A DNA stretch of 64,000 nucleotides from assembly GCA_944391505.1 (NCBI GenBank), contig CALXTV010000001.1, positions 203,952 to 267,951 on the forward strand, read 5' to 3'. Position numbers and translations under genes: made by a program. Under the pieces are notes generated by a model, which made no database searches, was not told the DNA's origin, and worked only from the letters and a program-made list of their open reading frames with translations. This document shows positions 3,491-28,010 of this stretch, in pieces. Each line of letters opens with the position of its first letter. Position 1 is the first letter of the stretch. The DNA is from an uncultured Alphaproteobacteria bacterium. GTDB lineage: Bacteria; Pseudomonadota; Alphaproteobacteria; RF32; CAG-239.

Positions 3491-4105
3491 TTAACATTCC
3501 AATCCGTCTATAATACTGATTAAATCCGTAAATATCTTATTTTTCGGCCGCCCGGTATCAATAACCACGTCTGCTAGTACAATTTTGTCGCGATTGCTCA
3601 TCTGAATATCATTAATCTTGTCAAAATCTTCGCCGGTAATATTGTCTCTCTTCATGACCCTTCTTTTTTGGGTTTCATAATCGACATCGGCAACGATAAT
3701 GCAGTCGCAATAAATATCCCAGCCCATTTCAAACAACAGGGCAACGTCCAGAAAATAAAGCTCGTCGCTTTTGGCATGCCGATGAATAACTTTTTTGAGA
3801 TATTGACGAAGAAAAGGATGAATCAGCCCTTCAAGCTCTTTAAGCCGGGCATTGTCATTAAAAACAATATTACGCAGTGCCCGTTTGTTAACTTTTCCGT
3901 CTTCGACAACTTTGGGAAAATGGCTTTCAATAACCCGGATAAAATTCTTTTTAAAATACAGTCTGCGTACCCAGCCGTCCACGTCGTAAACACAGTACCC
4001 CAAACGCCTGACCATGGAAGCCAGCGTTGTTTTTCCGCAGCCTATGGAGCCGGTGATAGCCACAAGTTTCATAAAAAAATCCTCAGATTCAAAACCTTGA
4101 CTCAC
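3491..4105 (-). CDS. coaE: dephospho-CoA kinase
   Basis: ITGSIGCGKTT P-loop at the N-terminus. 204 aa. 1-nt gap to dnaQ. Confidence 0.9.
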   Translation of the reverse strand: MSQGFESEDFFMKLVAITGSIGCGKTTLASMVRRLGYCVYDVDGWVRRLYFKKNFIRVIESHFPKVVEDGKVNKRALRNIVFNDNARLKELEGLIHPFLRQYLKKVIHRHAKSDELYFLDVALLFEMGWDIYCDCIIVADVDYETQKRRVMKRDNITGEDFDKINDIQMSNRDKIVLADVVIDTGRPKNKIFTDLISIIDGLEC

Positions 4106-4602
4106 TTATGCACAAAAACACGTTTGGCTGTGTATAAATAAGCCTCCTGAGATATTTATATAGATTAATCACCACAAAGTAAAATCTAATATACAACTTT
4201 ACTAACAGGTGGATAACTTTAGGCACAGAGGTTGATAAAAACACTTATCAACAAAAAGCCCTTTTTCCGGTTTACAAAATCAGCAAAAATAAAATTAACG
4301 ATTCGTTAATCATGCTTAATTTTCGTTAACAAATTTATTAACACATTTTTAACTTCTGGATATTTCTGTTCAAAAATAATAATCCACATTTGCCGCAGGG
4401 ATATACCAATAACTACTAAACTTTTTAAAATTTATTATAGAGAGGTTTGACTGTGCATAAAAATCAGACAACATTTAATTGACTTTACCTTATTTAAATC
4501 ATATAAAATAACCACGCATTAATTCTGCAAAGTAACAATGCAGAGGGGTTCTTCCCTCACCTTCACTTACATATACACATCAAATACATATTCAAGGTCA
4601 CA

Positions 4603-5856
4603 ATGCATTTAAAAGATTTAAAGCAAAAATCTCCCAAAGAGTTGCTAACTCAGGCGGAGGAACTGGGAATTGAAGACGCATCTTCCATGCGTGTTCAGGA
4701 TTTGATTTTCGCCATCATGAAAAAAGTTGCTTCCGACGACCAGACCATTTACGGCGAAGGAACCATCGAAGTTCTGCAGGATGGTTTTGGTTTTCTGCGC
4801 TCTGCGGAATCAAATTATCTGGCCAGTCCCGATGATATTTATGTTTCACCCTCACAGGTTAAAAAATTCGGCCTGCGCACCGGTGATACCGTTGAAGGCG
4901 AAATCCGCGGCCCAAAAGACAACGAACGCTATTTTGCCTTAACCAAAATCAATACGATTAATTTTGAAGATCCGGAAAAATCCAAACTGCGTGTCAATTT
5001 CGACAACCTTACGCCGCTTTATCCGACCAAAAAGCTTGATTTTGACATCATCTGCGGCGAGAAGGACTATACCACCCGCATTATCGATCTGATTGCCCCG
5101 CAGGGCAAGGGACAGCGCGGATTGATTGTTGCGCCGCCGCGTACCGGTAAAACCGTCATGCTGCAGAATATTGCTCATGCTATTGCCACCAATCACCCCG
5201 AAGTTTATCTGATGGTGCTTTTAATTGACGAACGACCGGAAGAAGTTACCGATATGAGCCGCTCGGTCAAGGGAGAAGTCATTTCTTCCACTTTTGACGA
5301 ACCGGCTGCCCGCCATGTCCAGGTTGCCGAAATGGTTATCGAAAAAGCCAAACGTCTGGTTGAAACCAAAAAAGACGTTGTTATTCTGCTCGATTCCATA
5401 ACCCGTCTCGGCCGCGCATACAACACGGTTATTCCTTCGTCCGGAAAAGTGCTTACCGGCGGTGTCGATGCCAATGCTCTGCAGCGTCCGAAGCGTCTGC
5501 TTGGTGCTGCGCGCAATGTTGAAGAAGGCGGTTCGCTGACCATCATTGCTACGGCGCTTATCGATACCGGTTCGCGTATGGACGAAGTTATTTTTGAAGA
5601 GTTCAAGGGTACCGGCAACTCTGAAATCATCTTGGATCGCAAACTGACCGACAAACGTTTGTTCCCGACCATTGATATTACCCGTTCCGGTACGCGTAAG
5701 GAGGAACTGCTGGTGGATAAGGCTACGCTTTCCAAAATGTGGGTTCTGCGCCGTGTTCTGATGCAAATGGGTATGACTGACGGCATGGAATTTCTGCTCG
5801 ATAAATTGCGTTTATCCAAAGACAATCAGGATTTCTTTAATACCATGAACTCTTGA
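4603..5856 (+). CDS. rho: transcription termination factor Rho
   Basis: 417 aa. N-terminal OB/RNA-binding region and RecA-like ATPase with PPRTGKT Walker A. Long ~500-nt leader upstream, typical for rho. Confidence 0.96.
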
Positions 5857-5882
5857 TAACGATAAAATGCCAAAATCCCTCT

Positions 5883-5912
5883 GCAAAGAGGGATTTTTTT
5901 TGAAAAATAAAT
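5883..5912 (+). terminator. intrinsic terminator downstream of rho
   Basis: Stem ATCCCTCT / AGAGGGAT with GCAA loop, followed by T8 (5905..5912). Confidence 0.8.
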
Positions 5913-5930
5913 TAAATATATTGACAAAAT

Positions 5931-5960
5931 TTTTCTGTCATTATTATACTGACTTAGTTT
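5931..5960 (+). promoter_or_regulatory. sigma70-like promoter (TTGACA – 17/18 nt – TATACT)
   Basis: -35 TTGACA at 5931..5936 and -10 TTATAC/TATACT at 5954..5960. Positioned ~20 nt upstream of the mini-ORF at 5983. Confidence 0.5.
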
Positions 5961-5982
5961 TAACGCAAACATAAGGCGAAAA

Positions 5983-6111
5983 ATGTCTTTTTTAGGCAAA
6001 ACATATAAACTCTTTCCTCTTTCCGCAGCTTTCGGCTCGGAAATTTTCGCCGTTATTCTTGCAAAATCTCTTCTAATCAGCATTTTGCTTTTGTTGATTA
6101 TGAACCTCTGA
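5983..6111 (+). CDS. small hydrophobic peptide (42 aa), candidate leader or type-I-toxin-like peptide
   Basis: ATG at 5983 with AAGG 7 nt upstream. My translation is MSFLGKTYKLFPLSAAFGSEIFAVILAKSLLISILLLLIMNL, a single predicted TM helix. Below the 60-aa ORF-track cutoff. Its 3' end lies in a 23-bp direct repeat. Confidence 0.35.
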   Translation: MSFLGKTYKLFPLSAAFGSEIFAVILAKSLLISILLLLIMNL

Positions 6112-6356
6112 GCACTTTTATCGGTAAAATAAAGCTTGGGTGCTTGGAGGATGAAAATCAACAGGCTTTAGGCTTTTTTGAGTTAATTATCAGGATTTTG
6201 CAAACATGAAGACAAACAACCAATTACAAAATAAAGATTTTGTTCTTTCGAAGGTTCTGCTGCTTATGAGCCTCTGATTGCTTTTGGTAATTCGGCAGTC
6301 AGAGGATAAACGCAAAATTACAAGCAGATTAACCTTTAAATCAAAAGAGAAATAAA

Positions 6357-8192
6357 ATGAGCAAATACAGTCAGGCGGTCATCGCCAAAAAACCCGAATT
6401 TTCCTACCTTGATACCGATGCCCCGTTAAGAAACACTTACGGAGACGGCACCGTCAATACCTACAATCCGCAGATTTTTCCTTATGCCGAAAGTTTTATG
6501 CGTACAATTCTGAAACGTGTTAACGATACCTATGCCGCCGTTGTTGAAGACGAACACCGGCAAATGCTTTGCCGAGAGCTTTATAGGCAGTTGAAACATG
6601 ATTTCCGCTTTGATTTTTCCGATCACCTCGGACCGATGCGTCAGCGTGACAAACGCGGCGCCGAAGCTGTTGTTGAAGAGAATGATTATAATATGTTCCA
6701 TTCCTGTTATAAGTTTGTCAATCAGGCAGCACGGGCGCATAGTTTTGGCGAAAAGTTCAACCTGTCGCTGATGTCCGGCCGTGTCAATACCGACAATCAG
6801 ACCGGTCCGGAAATTTGTGATCCTTTTGTTTTTGGGCCGCCGCTTTATCTCTACAGCAAAATTTATCCGAAAGTTGTCGCCATGACTTTGCCCGGTTTTG
6901 ACACGCCTGAAAAAATATCGGCACTCAAAGCACATGAAAAAGAAATGAAAAAAGATATGTTTGCCAAAAAATCTTTGGCGGCAAAAGCTCTGAAGGCCCG
7001 CTGGCATCATCTGATAAATAAGGAATTTATGCCGCAGAATATGGAATTTAAGGACTTAAGCATAAATACCGTCAAGGCTCTTTCCGAACTGCACAAAGAT
7101 GTTTTGACCGAGTTTTCCGCTCAGGTTGAGCAACAGTTTCAAAATGATGTCCGTATGTTGAAAAAAATAATGAAACTGCTGGATAAACAGATGACCTACA
7201 ATAAGGCTAAAGGAACGCCGGAAAATGAATTGGCCTCGTTGCAGTTGGCGTCCGTCCATGCCATGCAGGCCAACGATTTGCTGAAGAACAGTTCGGTAAT
7301 TCAGGTCAGTATTGAAGCAGAAAAGCCGATATTTGCTTTTATGGCCGATGTTCTTGATAATCCGCAGTCGCTTACTGCACGGATTTTTGACAATCCGCAA
7401 ACCCGAACAGTTTTTGAAACTGAAATGAAAAAAATTCATACGACCAAATCGGACAGTAAGTATACGCATCTGCTTGATCATATGGTACCGGCCGGTTCGG
7501 GAAAAATGCCGGCCTATGCCAAAATGCTCGGCGACGAATACGGCGAAGAAATGAACAGAAAACAAATTGCCGAAGCTTTGCGCAGCGGCGAAGCAATGCC
7601 TAAAGTTTCGTTTATGCTGGCCGTTGTTTTGCTGGAAACCGGTGCCAAAATCGAGGGGGGCAGTTCGCAGATTGTTTATGCCCGCCGGATTAAAGAGGCT
7701 TTGGGAAAAGTTTTTGACGAAGCCGTGCGCCAGCCTGGTTTTGACCGGAAGGATATAGACGCCCGCCGCGCCGTAATTGAAAAATTTGATTACAGGACGG
7801 CACAGGCGCAAATCTGGGGTGTTAAAGAAAACGGCAATGTATTGGGTTACCGCGATTTAATCAACGGTAGCGTTAAAATAGATGACAACCTGCTCGATTC
7901 TGTTGCTTCTGTTTCTTCCCGTGCTGCTTTTGACGCTGCTTCCGTCCATCGTTTTTATTCTTTTGTGACCGGTGAACCGATGTCAGAAAATGAAAAGGCG
8001 GCACAGAAAGAAAGAGTTAAAGGAAACCTGCTTCGTTTTGCCGACAATGATGATTTTACCCGCATTTTAGCACCCGGCAGCACTTTTTACAAAAGACTGT
8101 CCATGATAATCAGAAATGATGAAAATGTTCTCGGCCGTCAGGCACAGAAGGCTTATGCTTTTAACAAATATCAGTCGGCGGCGGGATTCTGA
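6357..8192 (+). CDS. hypothetical protein, 611 aa, no signal peptide and no recognisable motif
   Basis: Long clean ORF preceded by AAAAGAGAAATAAAATG. Translationally coupled (2-nt gap) to the downstream S66 peptidase gene. I recognise no Walker, HExxH or other motif. Confidence 0.7.
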   Translation: MSKYSQAVIAKKPEFSYLDTDAPLRNTYGDGTVNTYNPQIFPYAESFMRTILKRVNDTYAAVVEDEHRQMLCRELYRQLKHDFRFDFSDHLGPMRQRDKRGAEAVVEENDYNMFHSCYKFVNQAARAHSFGEKFNLSLMSGRVNTDNQTGPEICDPFVFGPPLYLYSKIYPKVVAMTLPGFDTPEKISALKAHEKEMKKDMFAKKSLAAKALKARWHHLINKEFMPQNMEFKDLSINTVKALSELHKDVLTEFSAQVEQQFQNDVRMLKKIMKLLDKQMTYNKAKGTPENELASLQLASVHAMQANDLLKNSSVIQVSIEAEKPIFAFMADVLDNPQSLTARIFDNPQTRTVFETEMKKIHTTKSDSKYTHLLDHMVPAGSGKMPAYAKMLGDEYGEEMNRKQIAEALRSGEAMPKVSFMLAVVLLETGAKIEGGSSQIVYARRIKEALGKVFDEAVRQPGFDRKDIDARRAVIEKFDYRTAQAQIWGVKENGNVLGYRDLINGSVKIDDNLLDSVASVSSRAAFDAASVHRFYSFVTGEPMSENEKAAQKERVKGNLLRFADNDDFTRILAPGSTFYKRLSMIIRNDENVLGRQAQKAYAFNKYQSAAGF

Positions 8193-8194
8193 CA

Positions 8195-9082
8195 ATGACA
8201 AATAAAAAAATTGCCGTTATCTCGCCCTCTCTGCCTTTAAGCTCCGTTGATGAAATTGCACCGGCCTTAAACCGGTTGTCCGCTTCAGATATTGAAGTTG
8301 AGTTCTATTCCGGAACGGAAAAAATTGCTGCTTTTAACTGCGCCCAAAACGGAAATGCCGATTTGGTAATGGCTTCGCGCGGCGGTTTCAATTCGATTGA
8401 ACTTTTGCCGCAGATAGATTTTTCGACAATAAAAAAACCGCTTTGCGGTTATTCGGACATTACTGTGCTTTTGAATGCCTTACTGGCCAAAACCGGAAAA
8501 ACGCAGTTTCTAGGTCCCAACCTGAAAGCTCTTTGCGTTGATGTTAACGACTATACGCTCAAAAACTTTGTTTCCGTTGCTTTGCAGAATGAAAATACCC
8601 TTTACGAGCCGTCGGAAACTTATTTGGATACGCATGTTTCTAAAACGGATTTTCTTAAAAATCCCGGTTTGACGATTATTAACCCGGGTGTGGCGGAAGG
8701 ACGATTGGTCGGCGGCAATTTATGCAGTCAGATTATGCTTGCCGGCACCGAATATTATCCGGTTTTTGAAGAAATGATTGTTGTTGCCGAAGAAGACGAC
8801 TTGTGTGGTTTGCATACGGTTGATATGTTTTTGCGCAATCTTTGGGCGCTGTTTGAATATGATTTTGCCAAAAACATTAAGGGACTGATAATAGGTCGTT
8901 TTATGCAAAACAGTCGGGTTGATTTACCGGCCTTTGTGCAAAAACTGCAAAGTTTTGAACCTTTACAAAAAATTCCGGTAATTGCCGGTTTTGATACCGG
9001 ACATACATTACCGCAGTTTACGCTTCCTTTGGGACGAAAAGCCGTTCTCAATACCGAAACTTTTCCGCTTTTAAGTTTTTAA
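8195..9082 (+). CDS. S66-family peptidase (LD-carboxypeptidase LdcA / microcin C7 immunity MccF-like)
   Basis: 295 aa. Catalytic-Ser motif CGYSDITVLL, an acidic VVAEEDD region and a GFDTGHTLP His region, matching the Ser-Glu-His triad layout of S66. Confidence 0.8.
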   Translation: MTNKKIAVISPSLPLSSVDEIAPALNRLSASDIEVEFYSGTEKIAAFNCAQNGNADLVMASRGGFNSIELLPQIDFSTIKKPLCGYSDITVLLNALLAKTGKTQFLGPNLKALCVDVNDYTLKNFVSVALQNENTLYEPSETYLDTHVSKTDFLKNPGLTIINPGVAEGRLVGGNLCSQIMLAGTEYYPVFEEMIVVAEEDDLCGLHTVDMFLRNLWALFEYDFAKNIKGLIIGRFMQNSRVDLPAFVQKLQSFEPLQKIPVIAGFDTGHTLPQFTLPLGRKAVLNTETFPLLSF

Positions 9083-9122: not shown

Positions 9123-9857
9123 TTAATAATTTTTAATTTCCAGTCTTTTTATTTCCGAAAAACCGGTTGACAAAGTAAACCCGGTCAAAACCCTTAATTG
9201 CGTATTCGAATTAATATCGCGGATTTTGGGATATTTTATCGGACTGATTCCAAGAATTTTACCCGGAATTTTTACCACATAAATTGTATTACCGTCTATA
9301 ATTTCCTTGTCCCAGCTTATAACCCGGACATATTCTGTTTTTGCAAAAAGAATATCTTCTTTTTCTTTCATTTCCTTATTCATGGTGTTAATTGCAAAAA
9401 TGATAAATATTATCATATTGACAAGGAGAGAAGCCTCGTAACCGTTAAACCGTGTGTGTTTGCCTGAGCTAAGAGATAAACGATGTTTTACATAATTAAG
9501 TTTAAGCAGATACGAAACATAAGGAATACAGCAATACAAAACAATATTGAAAATCAAGGCAACGGCCAAAGCTATGAGAAATACCGGAATAACATGCAAA
9601 AATAAGACATACATACCGAAATTGATCAGAGACCAGCCTAACCTGACCCAAACGCTTTCAATTTCAACATTGGCGAATTGTAACCTGATGAACATAAGCG
9701 CCGAAATAAAAATACCGGTTAATGCCGGAAATATATTATCTGGCCAGGTAGTCCAAACACAGATAAGACAAAATAAGACAGCTAATCCGCAGAAAATATA
9801 TTCTCCGTGGTCTTTCCAAATCGTGGCAAACTTTTTGCCGTAAATCTTAGTTTCCAT
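9123..9857 (-). CDS. integral membrane protein (4-5 N-terminal TM helices plus a ~90-aa C-terminal soluble domain)
   Basis: 244 aa. Hydrophobic N-terminal two thirds; C-terminal AKTEYVRVISWDKEIIDGNTIYVVKIPGKILGISPIK soluble region. No family assigned. Confidence 0.6.
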   Translation of the reverse strand: METKIYGKKFATIWKDHGEYIFCGLAVLFCLICVWTTWPDNIFPALTGIFISALMFIRLQFANVEIESVWVRLGWSLINFGMYVLFLHVIPVFLIALAVALIFNIVLYCCIPYVSYLLKLNYVKHRLSLSSGKHTRFNGYEASLLVNMIIFIIFAINTMNKEMKEKEDILFAKTEYVRVISWDKEIIDGNTIYVVKIPGKILGISPIKYPKIRDINSNTQLRVLTGFTLSTGFSEIKRLEIKNY

Positions 9858-27841: not shown

Positions 27842-27917
27842 CCCGAAAATGTTGATTTGTTTATTTTTCCCTTGAAAAAAGGGATAAAAAAAACGATATT
27901 AAAATAAGTTTTTTATT

Positions 27918-28010
27918 GGAGGGCGGCGGGTTAATTTTCCGCCAACCCGGTCAGGTCCGGAAGGAAGCAGCCGTAACGGAAGCGATTAAGGTCGCCCGCT
28001 CTCCGCCTCT
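27918..28010 (+). ncRNA. ffs: signal recognition particle RNA (4.5S RNA)
   Basis: Contains the conserved SRP domain IV sequence GGUCAGGUCCGGAAGGAAGCAGCC. Terminal helix GGAGGGCGGCGGG / CCCGCUCUCCGCCUC. Located immediately upstream of dnaX, a common position. Confidence 0.88.

What the first reader, a model, noticed from the sequence alone, without database searches (positions are those of the whole stretch)
5931..6356. Structured 500-bp leader: promoter-driven 42-aa hydrophobic mini-ORF and a 23-bp direct repeat ending two small ORFs with the same C-terminus
Downstream of the rho terminator there is a TTGACA-N17-TATACT promoter, then an RBS and a 42-codon ORF (5983..6111) encoding a single-TM peptide, MSFLGKTYKLFPLSAAFGSEIFAVILAKSLLISILLLLIMNL. 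Its last 23 bp (TGtTGaTTATGAaCCTCTGA) recur 166 bp downstream at 6258..6277 (TGcTGcTTATGAgCCTCTGA). There they close a second 23-codon ORF (6206..6277; MKTNNQLQNKDFVLSKVLLLMSL). Both peptides end in L-L-(I/L)-M-(N/S)-L-stop. This could be a type-I-toxin-like peptide, a duplicated leader peptide or attenuator controlling the downstream 611-aa/S66 operon, or a cis-regulatory direct repeat.
Basis: seen in the sequence. Interest (0 to 1): 0.5.

Follow-up and report, generated by a model that had tools for sequence, protein, structure and literature searches.

The report
Conserved leader mini-gene with duplicated end
The flagged stretch is the conserved, highly folded leader of an uncharacterised 611-residue enzyme gene of uncultured gut Alphaproteobacteria: it has its own promoter and a translated 42-codon mini-gene whose coding sequence pairs with the next ribosome-binding site, and the "direct repeat" is a duplication of the mini-gene's end found only in this lineage.

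Summary
The promoter spacer is 18 nt, not 17. The quoted repeat is 20 nt and extends to 24/31 identities, which 0 of 300 shuffles reach.

The 42-codon ORF is not a chance ORF. A 41-42-codon ORF with its own near-consensus promoter lies directly upstream of every homologue of the 611-aa gene examined, even at 52% protein identity and with different upstream genes. It shows a coding signature.

The RNA is strongly structured, and Rfam has no match. The ORF's own ribosome-binding site is paired with its codons 21-25. A hairpin sits inside the ORF. Two covarying, overlapping helices (A and B) embrace the stop codon.

In the single-unit relatives, ORF codons 30-35 pair with the Shine-Dalgarno sequence of the 611-aa gene. 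In the window's lineage the 3' module is duplicated (ORF2 plus hairpin 2), and ORF1 codons 26-30 pair with ORF2's ribosome-binding site.

Best reading: a leader-peptide (uORF) translational control element, possibly sensing Leu/Ile. The closest known analogue in architecture is the actinobacterial LEU element. The type-I-toxin reading is disfavoured. It is a new variant of a known kind, of moderate interest.

The parts
5921..5950 (+). Sigma-70-type promoter of the leader: TTGACA, 18-nt spacer, TATACT. The predicted start site is about 25 nt upstream of the uORF ATG.
   Evidence: 11 of 12 consensus positions; an equivalent near-consensus promoter at the same distance in 10 of 12 lineages, whatever gene lies upstream.
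5983..6111 (+). uORF1, 42 codons, MSFLGKTYKLFPLSAAFGSEIFAVILAKSLLISILLLLIMNL. It has a polar N-terminal half and a Leu/Ile-rich hydrophobic tail that ends at the stop codon.
   Evidence: 41-42 codons in all 30 unique leaders. The one exception, L030, has a homopolymer frameshift. The stop varies between TGA, TAA and TAG at the same position; no in-frame stop, against 2-8 in frame +1, and U at codon position 2 in 67% of the last 20 codons; within-species variants fall only at codon position 3.
5971..6056 (+). 5' domain. Stem S masks the uORF1 SD and spacer (GGCGAAAA 5975-5982 with UUUUCGCC 6044-6051, extended by AUAA 5971-5974 with UUAU 6053-6056). The domain encloses a start-codon hairpin (5984-5988 with 5994-5998) and hairpin H0 (6020-6043).
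   Evidence: MFE and centroid; the best partner of the uORF ribosome-binding site lies at codons 18-28 in 13 of 16 leaders, with lineage-specific sequences. H0 is present in every lineage with unrelated sequences.
6059..6069 (+). uORF1 codons 26-30, UUGCAAAAUCU. This is the 5' strand of 'base stem 1', which pairs with the ORF2 ribosome-binding site (6193-6203). Overlapping it, UCUCUU 6067-6072 can pair with the main SD AAGAGA 6345-6350.
   Evidence: centroid and MFE; the same uORF1 region is the best partner of the ORF2 ribosome-binding site in all 9 members (z -1.5 to -3.0); 82% paired, with one compensatory pair.
6092..6163 (+). Hairpin A. Its lower stem is UGUUGAUU 6092-6099 with AAUCAACA 6156-6163. 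Its upper stem is CCUCUGAGCACUU 6105-6117 with GGGUGCUUGGAGG 6138-6150. The uORF1 stop codon (6109-6111) lies inside the 5' arm, and an SD-like GGAGG lies in the 3' arm. This is repeat copy 1.
   Evidence: 13 of 13 pairs in the window and middle clades. In the distant clade 12 of 12 pairs form with a 1-nt bulge, and the four upper pairs have a different sequence.
6130..6170 (+). Stem B: UAAAGCUUG 6130-6138 with CAGGCUUUA 6162-6170. It crosses hairpin A and shares 6138 and 6162-6163 with it, so the two form either an H-type pseudoknot or alternative folds.
   Evidence: RNAalifold predicts 9 pairs, 6 of them with compensatory double changes; 99% of cells paired across 22 sequences.
6192..6277 (+). 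ORF2 (6206-6277, 23 codons) with an SD-like AGGA at 6192-6195. It is present only in the window's lineage. It contains a pyrimidine tract (UUCUUUC 6243-6249) and ends in repeat copy 2.
   Evidence: an ORF of 18-29 codons in all 9 lineage members, with a poorly conserved peptide; an L-to-Q polymorphism; the stop is lost in L003 (TGA to TGG) while the pairing is kept.
6254..6340 (+). The second, diverged copy of the module made of the uORF 3' end and hairpin A. It includes hairpin 2 (CCUCUGAUUGCU 6271-6282 with GGCAGUCAGAGG 6294-6305).
   Evidence: CM hits of 33 bits in the window and 27-29 bits in L001, L002 and L005, and none in single-unit lineages. HP2 is 83% paired, with 3 pairs showing double changes. 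GC to AU changes in L001-3.
6345..6359 (+). Purine-rich SD (AAGAGA 6345-6350) and the start codon (6357-6359) of the 611-aa gene.
   Evidence: The start MSKYSQ / MNKYSQ is conserved in all homologues.
6357..8192 (+). The controlled gene. It encodes a 611-aa protein with no Pfam, NCBIfam or PDB sequence match. Its predicted fold is distantly BshC-like or class-I aminoacyl-tRNA-synthetase-like.

Best explanation
The region 5921-6356 is the dedicated 5' leader of the 611-aa gene. It works as a leader-peptide (uORF) translational control element.

Shown:
- The leader has its own strong promoter.
- It carries a genuinely coding 42-codon uORF.
- Its RNA fold is conserved. The uORF's own ribosome-binding site is masked by uORF codons 21-25. 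The uORF stop codon sits in the 5' arm of a conserved hairpin (A). Hairpin A overlaps a second, covarying helix (B).
- The 3' half of the uORF coding sequence base-pairs with the next ribosome-binding site downstream.
- In the single-unit relatives, that next site is the Shine-Dalgarno sequence of the 611-aa gene itself.
- In the window's lineage the 3' module (end of the uORF plus hairpin) has been duplicated, giving ORF2 and hairpin 2. Here the site masked by uORF1 is that of ORF2.

Inferred:
- A ribosome translating, and especially pausing in, the Leu/Ile-rich tail of the uORF melts the base stem and exposes the next ribosome-binding site. Expression of the 611-aa gene would then depend on, and be tuned by, uORF translation.
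- In the window this would run as a relay: uORF1, then ORF2, then the gene.
- Helices A and B, with the decoy pair CCUCUGA:GGAGG, would set which anti-SD copy is free.

More speculative:
- The signal may be the supply of charged tRNA-Leu and tRNA-Ile. The tail is 50-65% Leu+Ile, far above membrane helices of the same genome.
For: 1. Linkage to the gene.
- The leader motif occurs once in the window, with 0 expected by chance.
- It occurs once in each of the 18 genome loci found through the 611-aa protein.
- It occurs in 24 metagenome contigs. All 21 with enough downstream DNA carry the 611-aa gene at the expected distance.
- Upstream genes differ between loci: rho, gyrB, a tRNA, lipoprotein genes.
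- A peptide-profile search of 5.8 billion proteins finds only 12 clusters of 41-54 aa. The two traced back (P0090, P0092) again sit about 100 nt upstream of a Pfam-less gene with a product of about 500-610 aa as called.

2. The uORF is coding.
- It is 41-42 codons long in 30 unique leaders.
- The stop is TGA, TAA or TAG at the same position.
- There are no in-frame stops, against 2-8 in frame +1. The chance that it stays open after shuffling is 0.06-0.2 per lineage.
- In the tail, U is at codon position 2 in 67% of codons, against 21% and 38% at positions 1 and 3.
- Within one species the variants are at position 3 only.

3. The structure.
- The leaders fold better than shuffles: z -3.5 for the window and -4.3 for L013.
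- Stem B has 9 pairs, 6 compensatory, and 99% of cells are paired. The whole 3' domain is 91% paired, against 40-49% when partners are slid.
- Stem A is fully paired in all clades, with a different upper-stem sequence in the distant clade.
- The best partner of the uORF ribosome-binding site lies at codons 18-28 in 13 of 16 leaders, and hairpin H0 is present in all lineages.

4. Masking of the downstream SD.
- In the distant clade CUCUGAUUCU(A/G) pairs with (U/C)AGAAUCAGAG, z -3.7 to -6.4. There are compensatory changes in L016 and L012.
- That pairing is the base stem of the centroid fold.
- In the window lineage the best partner of the ORF2 ribosome-binding site is uORF1 codons 25-33 in 9 of 9 members. 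L001-3 use a different sequence pair for this.
- The main ribosome-binding site pairs with the ORF2 body, z down to -4.9.

5. The duplication is supported by CM hits.

6. Leu/Ile bias.
- Leu+Ile make up 0.50-0.65 of the tail, against 0.35 +/- 0.07 (maximum 0.50) in 18 membrane-like 20-mers of the window.
- The major Leu codon CTG is unused in uORF1.

7. Precedent. The actinobacterial LEU element has the same layout: a Leu-codon uORF pairs with the SD at the base of a pseudoknot or alternative hairpin (PMC1262725).
Against: - There are no expression data of any kind. Translation, pausing and induction are all inferred.
- In the window lineage and the middle clade the SD-masking helices are individually weak (z -0.2 to -3) and not always in the same register.
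- The outer helices of the second domain are only 62-66% conserved.
- The ORF2 peptide is not conserved, and hairpin 2 is degenerate in L004, L010 and L042. The relay step may therefore be dispensable.
- The uORF's own ribosome-binding site is heavily masked. That is unusual for classical leader peptides and more typical of toxic small proteins.
- The strong positional selection for hydrophobic residues would also fit a functional membrane peptide.
- For the LEU element, the paper cites earlier experimental evidence that mutating the Leu codons did not affect regulation, and its authors judged classical leader-peptide attenuation unlikely there. Architecture alone does not prove codon sensing.
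- The function of the 611-aa protein is unknown, so no signal can be argued from physiology.
Confidence: 0.55

Rival explanations
1. uORF1 encodes a functional small tail-anchored membrane protein that works with the 611-aa protein, as anchor, partner or substrate. The locus would then be a two-gene operon, and the RNA structure would only set the translation ratio or couple the two genes.
For: - There is strong, frame-specific selection for a roughly 20-residue hydrophobic C-terminus in all lineages. Mean Kyte-Doolittle hydropathy is 1.8-2.7.
- The length is strictly conserved at 41-42 aa.
- Co-occurrence with the 611-aa gene is invariable.
- A masked ribosome-binding site fits a protein needed in small amounts.
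- Gene callers already list it as a hypothetical protein, CDB53233.1.
Against: - No residue other than the terminal Leu, one Ile and the initiator Met is invariant. The terminal codons are also fixed by RNA pairing.
- The composition is atypical for membrane helices of the same genome: Leu+Ile 50-65% with few V, F, A or G.
- The 611-aa model has no membrane segment, and nothing suggests a binding site.
- The stop codon and the last codons are embedded in an invariant RNA helix with an SD-like decoy. A simple operon does not require that.
Confidence: 0.2
2. The conserved pseudoknot-like core (helices A and B with invariant GGGYGYYYGGAGG and an A-rich 3' strand) is a binding site for a protein or small ligand, i.e. 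riboswitch-like or LEU-element-like. The uORF would be secondary.
For: - The core has invariant unpaired or decoy nucleotides and two covarying crossing helices.
- The authors of the LEU element favoured a protein-binding explanation for a similar layout.
Against: - Rfam has no match, even at permissive thresholds.
- Most invariant letters are explained by pairing (CCUC:GAGG, AUUA:UAAU).
- The coding signature of the uORF and the conserved position of the stop codon inside helix A point to ribosome involvement.
Confidence: 0.1
3. The element is a type I toxin-antitoxin-like module. The 42-aa hydrophobic peptide would be a membrane toxin whose mRNA is kept inert by SD sequestration and by an antisense RNA.
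For: - The peptide is small and hydrophobic, and the promoter is a strong constitutive type.
- The SD and start codon are masked by internal anti-SD sequences.
- The reverse complement of the invariant ATTAT(N) reads as a -10-like NATAAT. It gives 9-10 of 12 antisense promoter matches at the same place in 4 of 12 lineages.
Against: - The element is always single-copy, always co-directional with and 84-249 nt upstream of one particular gene family, and has no intervening terminator.
- The antisense promoter matches are at background level: the promoter scan of the window region found 3 sites against 2.2 expected from shuffles. They are absent in most lineages.
- The uORF coding sequence pairs with the downstream ribosome-binding site. 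That is a cis-regulatory design, not a stand-alone TA design.
Confidence: 0.05
4. The leader is a classical transcription attenuator. Stem B, or B plus the U-run, would be a terminator. Alternatively Rho terminates in the spacer, controlled by uORF translation as in the trp/ilv/leu or tna operons.
For: - A U-run follows stem B in the window (6174-6179), L001-3, L006-8 and L017.
- The uORF has a run of Leu/Ile codons.
- Hairpin H0 could act as a pause hairpin.
Against: - The terminator scan finds no + strand terminator-like site anywhere in window 5700-6600, and so none in the leader.
- Stem B has a 23-25-nt loop.
- The U-run is absent in L004, L005, L010, L042 and the whole distant clade.
- The spacer is only 84-105 nt and mostly structured in single-unit lineages.
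Confidence: 0.05

Closest known systems
LEU element upstream of leuA in Actinobacteria (Seliverstov et al. 2005, PMC1262725)
   Same: An upstream ORF with a run of Leu codons. A base stem formed by those codons and the SD of the downstream gene. Within it, a conserved pseudoknot or alternative hairpin. No obligatory terminator. (One search compared.)
   Different: The phylum, the sequence and the downstream gene all differ: an uncharacterised BshC/aaRS-like protein instead of leuA. Here the uORF is longer, at 42 codons, with a 20-residue Leu/Ile tail. Its own ribosome-binding site is masked. The stop codon lies inside the helix. In the window's lineage the module is duplicated. The mechanism of the LEU element is itself unsettled.
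Leader-peptide translational attenuation of ermC, cat and cmlA (established knowledge)
   Same: A short translated leader ORF. The SD of the resistance gene is sequestered in a helix with leader sequence. Alternative helices are remodelled by a ribosome stalled in the leader.
   Different: Those leaders are 8-19 codons long and respond to ribosome-bound antibiotics through specific arrest peptides. Here there is no known inducer, the ORF is much longer and hydrophobic, the uORF ribosome-binding site is self-masked, and the controlled gene is not a resistance gene as far as can be told.
Amino-acid operon leader peptides (ilvGMEDA, ilvBN, leu, trp; Rfam Leu_leader and related families)
   Same: A leader peptide enriched in codons for particular amino acids (here Leu and Ile) placed just before alternative RNA helices.
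   Different: Those act through an intrinsic terminator and antiterminator pair. No conserved terminator is present here, and control appears to act on ribosome-binding sites. There is no Rfam match. The downstream gene is not a recognisable biosynthetic gene.
Type I toxin mRNAs (hok/sok, aapA1/IsoA1, tisB/istR; established knowledge)
   Same: A small hydrophobic peptide, and an mRNA whose SD is sequestered by internal anti-SD sequences.
   Different: No conserved antisense RNA promoter was found. The element is strictly linked to and co-transcribed with a large downstream gene, and it is single-copy. The coding region masks the downstream gene's SD.
Secretion- and insertion-monitoring arrest peptides (SecM-secA, MifM-yidC2, VemP; established knowledge)
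   Same: The 3' part of the uORF pairs with the downstream ribosome-binding site, so a paused ribosome would expose it. The leader also has a hydrophobic segment.
   Different: In monitors the hydrophobic segment is N-terminal and emerges before the arrest point. Here it is the extreme C-terminus and cannot leave the ribosome before termination. The downstream gene is not a translocation factor.

Membership tests
uORF / leader-peptide translational attenuation (erm/cat type) | A short ORF with its own ribosome-binding site, directly upstream and genuinely translated | tested here: met
   By sequence signature only. The ORF is 41-42 codons in all lineages. The stop codon switches type at a fixed position. 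There are no in-frame stops, and there is a strong 3-base periodicity. Translation itself was not observed.
uORF / leader-peptide translational attenuation (erm/cat type) | The SD of the controlled gene is sequestered by pairing with leader or uORF sequence | tested here: met
   Clear in the distant clade: z -3.7 to -6.4, compensatory changes, and it forms the base stem of the centroid fold. In the window lineage the masked site is that of ORF2. Direct masking of the main SD there is weak.
uORF / leader-peptide translational attenuation (erm/cat type) | Alternative, mutually exclusive helices | tested here: inconclusive
   Helices A and B are both supported by covariation. They cross and share 2-3 nucleotides. 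A pseudoknot and a switch cannot be told apart in silico.
uORF / leader-peptide translational attenuation (erm/cat type) | Signal-dependent ribosome stalling in the leader ORF | not testable with these tools
   This needs toeprinting, ribosome profiling or reporter assays.
Amino-acid-sensing transcription attenuators (ilv/leu/trp leaders) | [quoted passage not shown] | tested here: met
   Leu+Ile make up 50-65% of the last 20 codons in 12 lineages, against 35 +/- 7% in membrane-like segments of the same window.
Amino-acid-sensing transcription attenuators (ilv/leu/trp leaders) | An intrinsic terminator with a competing antiterminator | tested here: not met
   There is no + strand terminator in the window leader. 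A U-run after stem B is present only in some lineages.
Amino-acid-sensing transcription attenuators (ilv/leu/trp leaders) | A match to the curated leader RNA families | tested here: not met
   cmscan against Rfam 15 gives only sub-threshold noise on the rho terminator (Phe_leader 22 bits against a gathering score of 55). Nothing matches on the leaders of the window, L006, L011 or L013.
LEU element (actinobacterial leuA leader) | A Leu-codon uORF, a base stem with the downstream SD, and an internal pseudoknot or alternative hairpin | tested here: met
   The architecture matches (searches compared with the description read).
LEU element (actinobacterial leuA leader) | Located upstream of leuA in Actinobacteria, with the conserved LEU sequence | tested here: not met
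   The host is an uncultured gut alphaproteobacterium. The downstream gene is a Pfam-less BshC/aaRS-like protein. The element therefore works like a LEU element but is not a member.
Type I toxin-antitoxin | A small hydrophobic peptide with an SD-sequestering mRNA fold | tested here: met
Type I toxin-antitoxin | A cognate antisense or overlapping sRNA with its own conserved promoter | tested here: inconclusive
   No strong, positionally conserved antisense promoter was found. Weak 9-10 of 12 matches occur at +104 to +107 in 4 of 12 lineages. No transcript data are available.
Type I toxin-antitoxin | An autonomous module not tied to a particular neighbouring gene | tested here: not met
   The element is always 84-249 nt upstream of, and co-directional with, the 611-aa gene family. 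It is single-copy.
Type I toxin-antitoxin | The peptide is toxic when expressed | not testable with these tools
   This needs an expression experiment.
Secretion/insertion monitor arrest peptides (SecM, MifM, VemP) | An N-terminal targeting or membrane segment followed by a C-terminal arrest motif, with a translocation factor as the downstream gene | tested here: not met
   The hydrophobic segment is the extreme C-terminus. The downstream protein has a soluble BshC/aaRS-like fold.
Microcin C-like peptide-nucleotide cluster (MccA/MccB/MccF) | A precursor ending in Asn, a ThiF-like MccB, and an S66 MccF immunity peptidase | tested here: not met
   The peptide ends in Leu. The 611-aa protein has no ThiF or other Pfam domain. 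The S66 gene is absent from most lineages that keep the leader.

The most novel reading that the evidence does not exclude
A previously undescribed two-tier translational relay (uORF1, then ORF2, then the gene) that arose by tandem duplication of a leader module. It would read the supply of charged tRNA-Leu and tRNA-Ile through ribosome pausing in a Leu/Ile-rich uORF tail. It would thereby switch on an uncharacterised BshC/class-I-aminoacyl-tRNA-synthetase-like ligase that is widespread in human-gut Alphaproteobacteria (the CAG-239 / Ca. Scatocola group). The conserved CCUCUGA:GGAGG pseudoknot would act as an anti-anti-SD decoy.
Probability: 0.15. Interest if true: 0.7.

Novelty: new variant of a known kind. 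Interest (0 to 1): 0.45.

Why it matters
The work defines a new cis-regulatory RNA and leader-peptide family that is absent from Rfam. The family is attached to a completely uncharacterised enzyme family in abundant but uncultured human and animal gut Alphaproteobacteria; one peptide variant alone was seen on at least 1000 contigs.

The leader gives a handle on that enzyme's physiology, because whatever induces the leader points to the enzyme's role. It adds a second, independent example of the puzzling LEU-element layout, in which a codon-run uORF pairs with the SD around a pseudoknot.

It also shows a leader module caught in the act of duplication and decay: intact in the window, L001-3 and L005, and degenerate in L004, L010 and L042.

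For annotation, ORF1 should be called a leader peptide. ORF2 should not be called a gene product of its own without evidence.

Tried and rejected
- **Rfam.** Searches with gathering and permissive thresholds on the window and on three other leaders found nothing. The only hits were sub-threshold matches on the rho terminator.
- **Pfam and NCBIfam on the proteins.** Both mini-peptides and the 611-aa protein gave nothing. A profile search of PDB sequences also gave nothing.
- **Distant homologues of the 611-aa protein.** The exhaustive profile search found 33 of them. None has a Pfam domain, so no function could be transferred.
- **Recoding signals.** Stop-codon read-through, selenocysteine insertion and frameshifting at the stop-plus-structure were considered and rejected. 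The stop varies among TGA, TAA and TAG. No slippery site is present. The read-through frame closes after 6 codons.
- **GGAGG as an SD.** The idea that GGAGG in hairpin A serves a hidden ORF was rejected, because no conserved start codon lies at a usable distance.
- **Microcin-C-like cluster.** This was suggested by the S66 neighbour. It was rejected because the S66 gene is missing in most lineages and the peptide does not end in Asn.
- **Intrinsic terminator after stem B.** It is not conserved.
- **Antisense promoter scan.** It gave only background-level matches.
- **Covariance-model re-alignment.** It did not correct the 1-nt register shift of hairpin A in the distant clade. The pairs were therefore counted with an explicit second register in a script.
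- **RNAalifold on the full leader.** It recovers only stem B, because MAFFT cannot align the sequence-divergent 5' hairpins. Those were assessed per sequence instead.
Full report
**Observation**

The window carries rho (4603-5856) with a terminator hairpin at 5872-5897. Downstream lie TTGACA (5921-5926) and TATACT (5945-5950), then ORF1 (5983-6111, 42 aa), ORF2 (6206-6277, 23 aa) and a 611-aa gene (6357-8192). An S66 peptidase gene follows two bases later.

The peptide sequences and the shared endings, LLIMNL-stop and LLLMSL-stop, are exactly as reported. Two details differ. The promoter spacer is 18 nt, not 17. The quoted repeat is 20 nt, not 23.

- At 17/20 identities the repeat is only marginally unusual: 16 of 300 shuffles do as well.
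- It extends to 31 nt (6089-6119 vs 6255-6285) with 24 identities, which no shuffle reached.
- Each copy is the 5' arm of a hairpin. CCUCUGAGCACUU 6105-6117 pairs with GGGUGCUUGGAGG 6138-6150. CCUCUGAUUGCU 6271-6282 pairs with GGCAGUCAGAGG 6294-6305.

**Where it comes from and what it travels with**

The 611-aa protein has no Pfam, NCBIfam or PDB sequence match.

- Its relatives number 39 clusters, at 53-99% identity for the 38 near-full-length relatives. All come from uncultured gut Alphaproteobacteria, for example Ca. Scatocola faecigallinarum and 'Azospirillum sp. CAG:239'.
- In 17 full genome loci the upstream gene is rho in only four. In all of them at least 290 bp without an ORF of 100 codons or more precede the gene.
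- A degenerate pattern for the leader core hits once in the window (0 expected) and once in each of the 18 loci.
- The same pattern hits 24 metagenome contigs. All 21 with enough downstream sequence carry the 611-aa gene at the expected distance.
- Searching from the peptide side finds only 12 clusters of 41-54 aa in 5.8 billion proteins. The two that were traced back again sit about 100 nt upstream of a Pfam-less gene with a product of about 500-610 aa as called, next to yet other genes such as gyrB.

The leader is therefore a dedicated companion of this gene family. The S66 gene is not: it is absent in L006-8 and L011-17.

**The mini-ORF is coding**

- In all 30 unique leaders an ATG with a purine-rich SD opens an ORF of 41 or 42 codons. 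The single exception, L030, has a 2-nt shorter T-run on a low-coverage contig.
- The stop codon is TGA, TAA (L001-3) or TAG (L004) at the same position.
- Frame 0 has no stop in 12 lineages, while frame +1 has 2-8. After shuffling, the chance of an open frame is 0.06-0.2 per lineage.
- The last 20 codons have U at codon position 2 in 67% of cases, against 21% at position 1 and 38% at position 3, in every lineage. This is selection on the encoded residues, not composition.
- Among 11 variants of one species, the three variable uORF sites are all third positions. ORF2 carries an L-to-Q polymorphism.

Peptide identity between clades is low. Only Met1, one Ile and the terminal Leu are invariant. 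The terminal codons are also constrained by RNA pairing.

**The RNA is highly structured and conserved as structure**

- The window leader (5957-6372) folds at -104.7 kcal/mol, z -3.5. A single-unit leader (L013) gives z -4.3.
- Independent folds of 12 lineages recover the same elements.

*5' domain*
- The uORF SD and spacer pair with uORF codons 21-25. In the window this is GGCGAAAA 5975-5982 with UUUUCGCC 6044-6051.
- Other lineages keep this pairing with different sequences: GGCGAAAG:CUUUCGCC in L001, AAGUAACGG:CCGUUAUUU in L017, AAUGGUAU:AUACCAUU in L009 and AGGAAAA:UUUUCCU in L013.
- The best partner lies at codons 18-28 in 13 of 16 leaders.
- The domain encloses a start-codon hairpin (5984-5998) and hairpin H0 (6020-6043). 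H0 exists everywhere with unrelated sequences.

*3' domain*
- Hairpin A has 13 of 13 pairs in the window and middle clades. In the distant clade 12 of 12 pairs form with a 1-nt bulge and a different upper-stem sequence. The uORF stop codon lies in its 5' arm and an SD-like GGAGG in its 3' arm.
- Stem B (6130-6138 with 6162-6170) is the one helix RNAalifold predicts on the whole alignment. It has 9 pairs, 6 of them with compensatory double changes, and 99% of cells are paired.
- Taken together, 91% of cells in this domain are paired, against 40-49% when partners are slid.
- A and B cross and share nucleotides. They form either an H-type pseudoknot or alternative folds, and this cannot be decided here.
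- Rfam has no match for any of it.

**How the uORF is wired to the downstream start**

*Distant, single-unit clade (L011-16, L037)*
- uORF codons 30-35 (CUCUGAUUCUA) pair with the SD region of the 611-aa gene (UAGAAUCAGAGGA).
- The z-scores are -3.7 to -6.4.
- Compensatory changes occur in L016 (A-U to G-C) and L012 (C-G to U-A).
- This pairing is the base stem that encloses hairpin A in the centroid fold.

*Middle clade (L017, L006)*
- The same uORF region is the best partner of the main ribosome-binding site in L017 and L006, but weakly (z about -1.3). In L007 and L009 the best partner lies elsewhere.

*Window lineage*
- The spacer is 243-249 nt instead of 84-105 nt.
- The equivalent uORF1 region (UUGCAAAAUCU 6059-6069) pairs with the ribosome-binding site of ORF2 (GGAUUUUGCAA 6193-6203). 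This is again the base stem around hairpin A in the centroid fold.
- uORF1 codons 25-33 are the best partner of the ORF2 ribosome-binding site in all nine members (z -1.5 to -3.0).
- There is a U-A to A-U compensation in L004 and L042, and a different sequence pair (UUCUGCUA:UAGCAGAA) in L001-3.
- The ribosome-binding site of the 611-aa gene in turn pairs with a pyrimidine tract inside ORF2, with z down to -4.9 but weak in the window itself.
- In the window's minimum-energy fold, UCUCUU 6067-6072 pairs directly with the main SD at 6345-6350.

**What the direct repeat is**

- A covariance model of the uORF 3' end plus hairpin A finds the first copy in every leader (60-98 bits).
- It finds a second copy only in the window (6254-6340, 33 bits), L001, L002 and L005.
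- Hairpin 2 keeps its pairing through GC-to-AU double changes in L001-3. It also keeps it through a G-U pair in L003, where the ORF2 stop is lost.
- In L004, L010 and L042 the second unit is degenerate.

The repeat is thus a tandem duplication of the leader's 3' module in one lineage, partly decaying. It is not a feature of the family as a whole.

**Most likely mechanism**

The evidence fits uORF-dependent translational control. Ribosomes on the 3' half of the uORF melt the base stem and free the next ribosome-binding site. In the window this gives a relay from uORF1 to ORF2 to the gene. Helices A and B, with the CCUCUGA:GGAGG decoy pair, control which anti-SD copy is available. The masked uORF ribosome-binding site limits loading.

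- Shown: linkage to the gene, the coding signature, the helices and their covariation.
- Inferred: ribosome-driven opening of the base stem, and any pausing.

A further, weaker inference is that the signal is the supply of Leu and Ile. The tail is 50-65% Leu+Ile, against 35 +/- 7% (maximum 50%) in membrane-like segments of the same window. It has few V, F, A or G residues, and in the window it avoids the major Leu codon CTG.

The closest described analogue is the actinobacterial LEU element. There a Leu-codon uORF pairs with the leuA SD at the base of a pseudoknot or alternative hairpin, and the mechanism is itself unresolved.

**Rivals**

- A functional tail-anchored small membrane protein partnered with the enzyme. 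This fits the hydrophobic selection and the fixed length, but not the composition or the RNA embedding of the stop codon.
- A protein- or ligand-binding RNA.
- A type I toxin. This is disfavoured by the strict single-copy linkage and the lack of a conserved antisense promoter.
- A transcription attenuator. There is no conserved terminator.

**The controlled gene**

- The AlphaFold model is confident (pLDDT 85, pTM 0.85).
- Foldseek finds nothing, so the assignment as a class-I-aaRS-like ligase with a coiled coil is tentative.
- The 33 proteins matched by an exhaustive profile search have no Pfam domains among the 10 checked, apart from one weak sub-threshold M15 match.

**Verdict**

The feature is real, conserved and not yet catalogued. 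It is a new variant of the known leader-peptide and SD-masking theme, with an unusual lineage-specific duplication. Interest is moderate. The mechanism and the signal await transcript, reporter and structure-probing data.

Noticed in passing
window 4106-4460: Six DnaA-box-like 9-mers (TTATCCACA with one mismatch) cluster in the AT-rich (GC about 0.30-0.34) divergent intergenic region between coaE and rho. The cumulative GC skew is near its minimum here. This is a candidate chromosomal replication origin next to rho.
   Followed up: partly
window 27915-28010 (+): Bacterial small SRP RNA, 64.7 bits. It is the only Rfam family reaching its gathering score in the window.
   Followed up: no
window 9123-9857 (-): A 244-aa multi-pass membrane protein with no Pfam or NCBIfam match. 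Similar genes, one or two copies, lie downstream of the S66 gene in L002, L003 and L005.
   Followed up: no
window 8195-9082 (+) and loci L001-L005, L009, L010: An S66 LD-carboxypeptidase/MccF-like gene starts 2 nt after the 611-aa gene in these lineages only. One distant homologue of the 611-aa protein (P0064, 917 aa) has a weak, sub-threshold M15 D-Ala-D-Ala-dipeptidase-like C-terminus. Together these hint at a link to cell-wall peptide metabolism.
   Followed up: partly
L030 about 1305-1325: One metagenome contig has T4 instead of T6 at uORF codons 3-4, which frameshifts the uORF. This is either a homopolymer assembly error on a low-coverage contig or a real loss.
   Followed up: partly
window 6097-6102 and the equivalent position in all leaders: The invariant ATTA(T/C)N at the uORF end reads as a -10-like NATAAT on the minus strand. 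With variable -35-like hexamers it gives weak antisense promoter matches at the same place in 4 of 12 lineages. Whether an antisense RNA exists is unknown.
   Followed up: partly
L017 about 3560-3640: In this locus what looks like a tRNA gene (read by eye; no tRNA scan was run on it) and its terminator lie immediately upstream of the leader promoter. This illustrates that the promoter-leader-gene unit has moved between contexts.
   Followed up: no
protein cluster of P0073/P0074: The 90%-identity cluster of the 42-aa peptide also lists an unrelated 608-aa FtsY-like protein (P0083). This is evidently a clustering artefact of the collection.
   Followed up: yes
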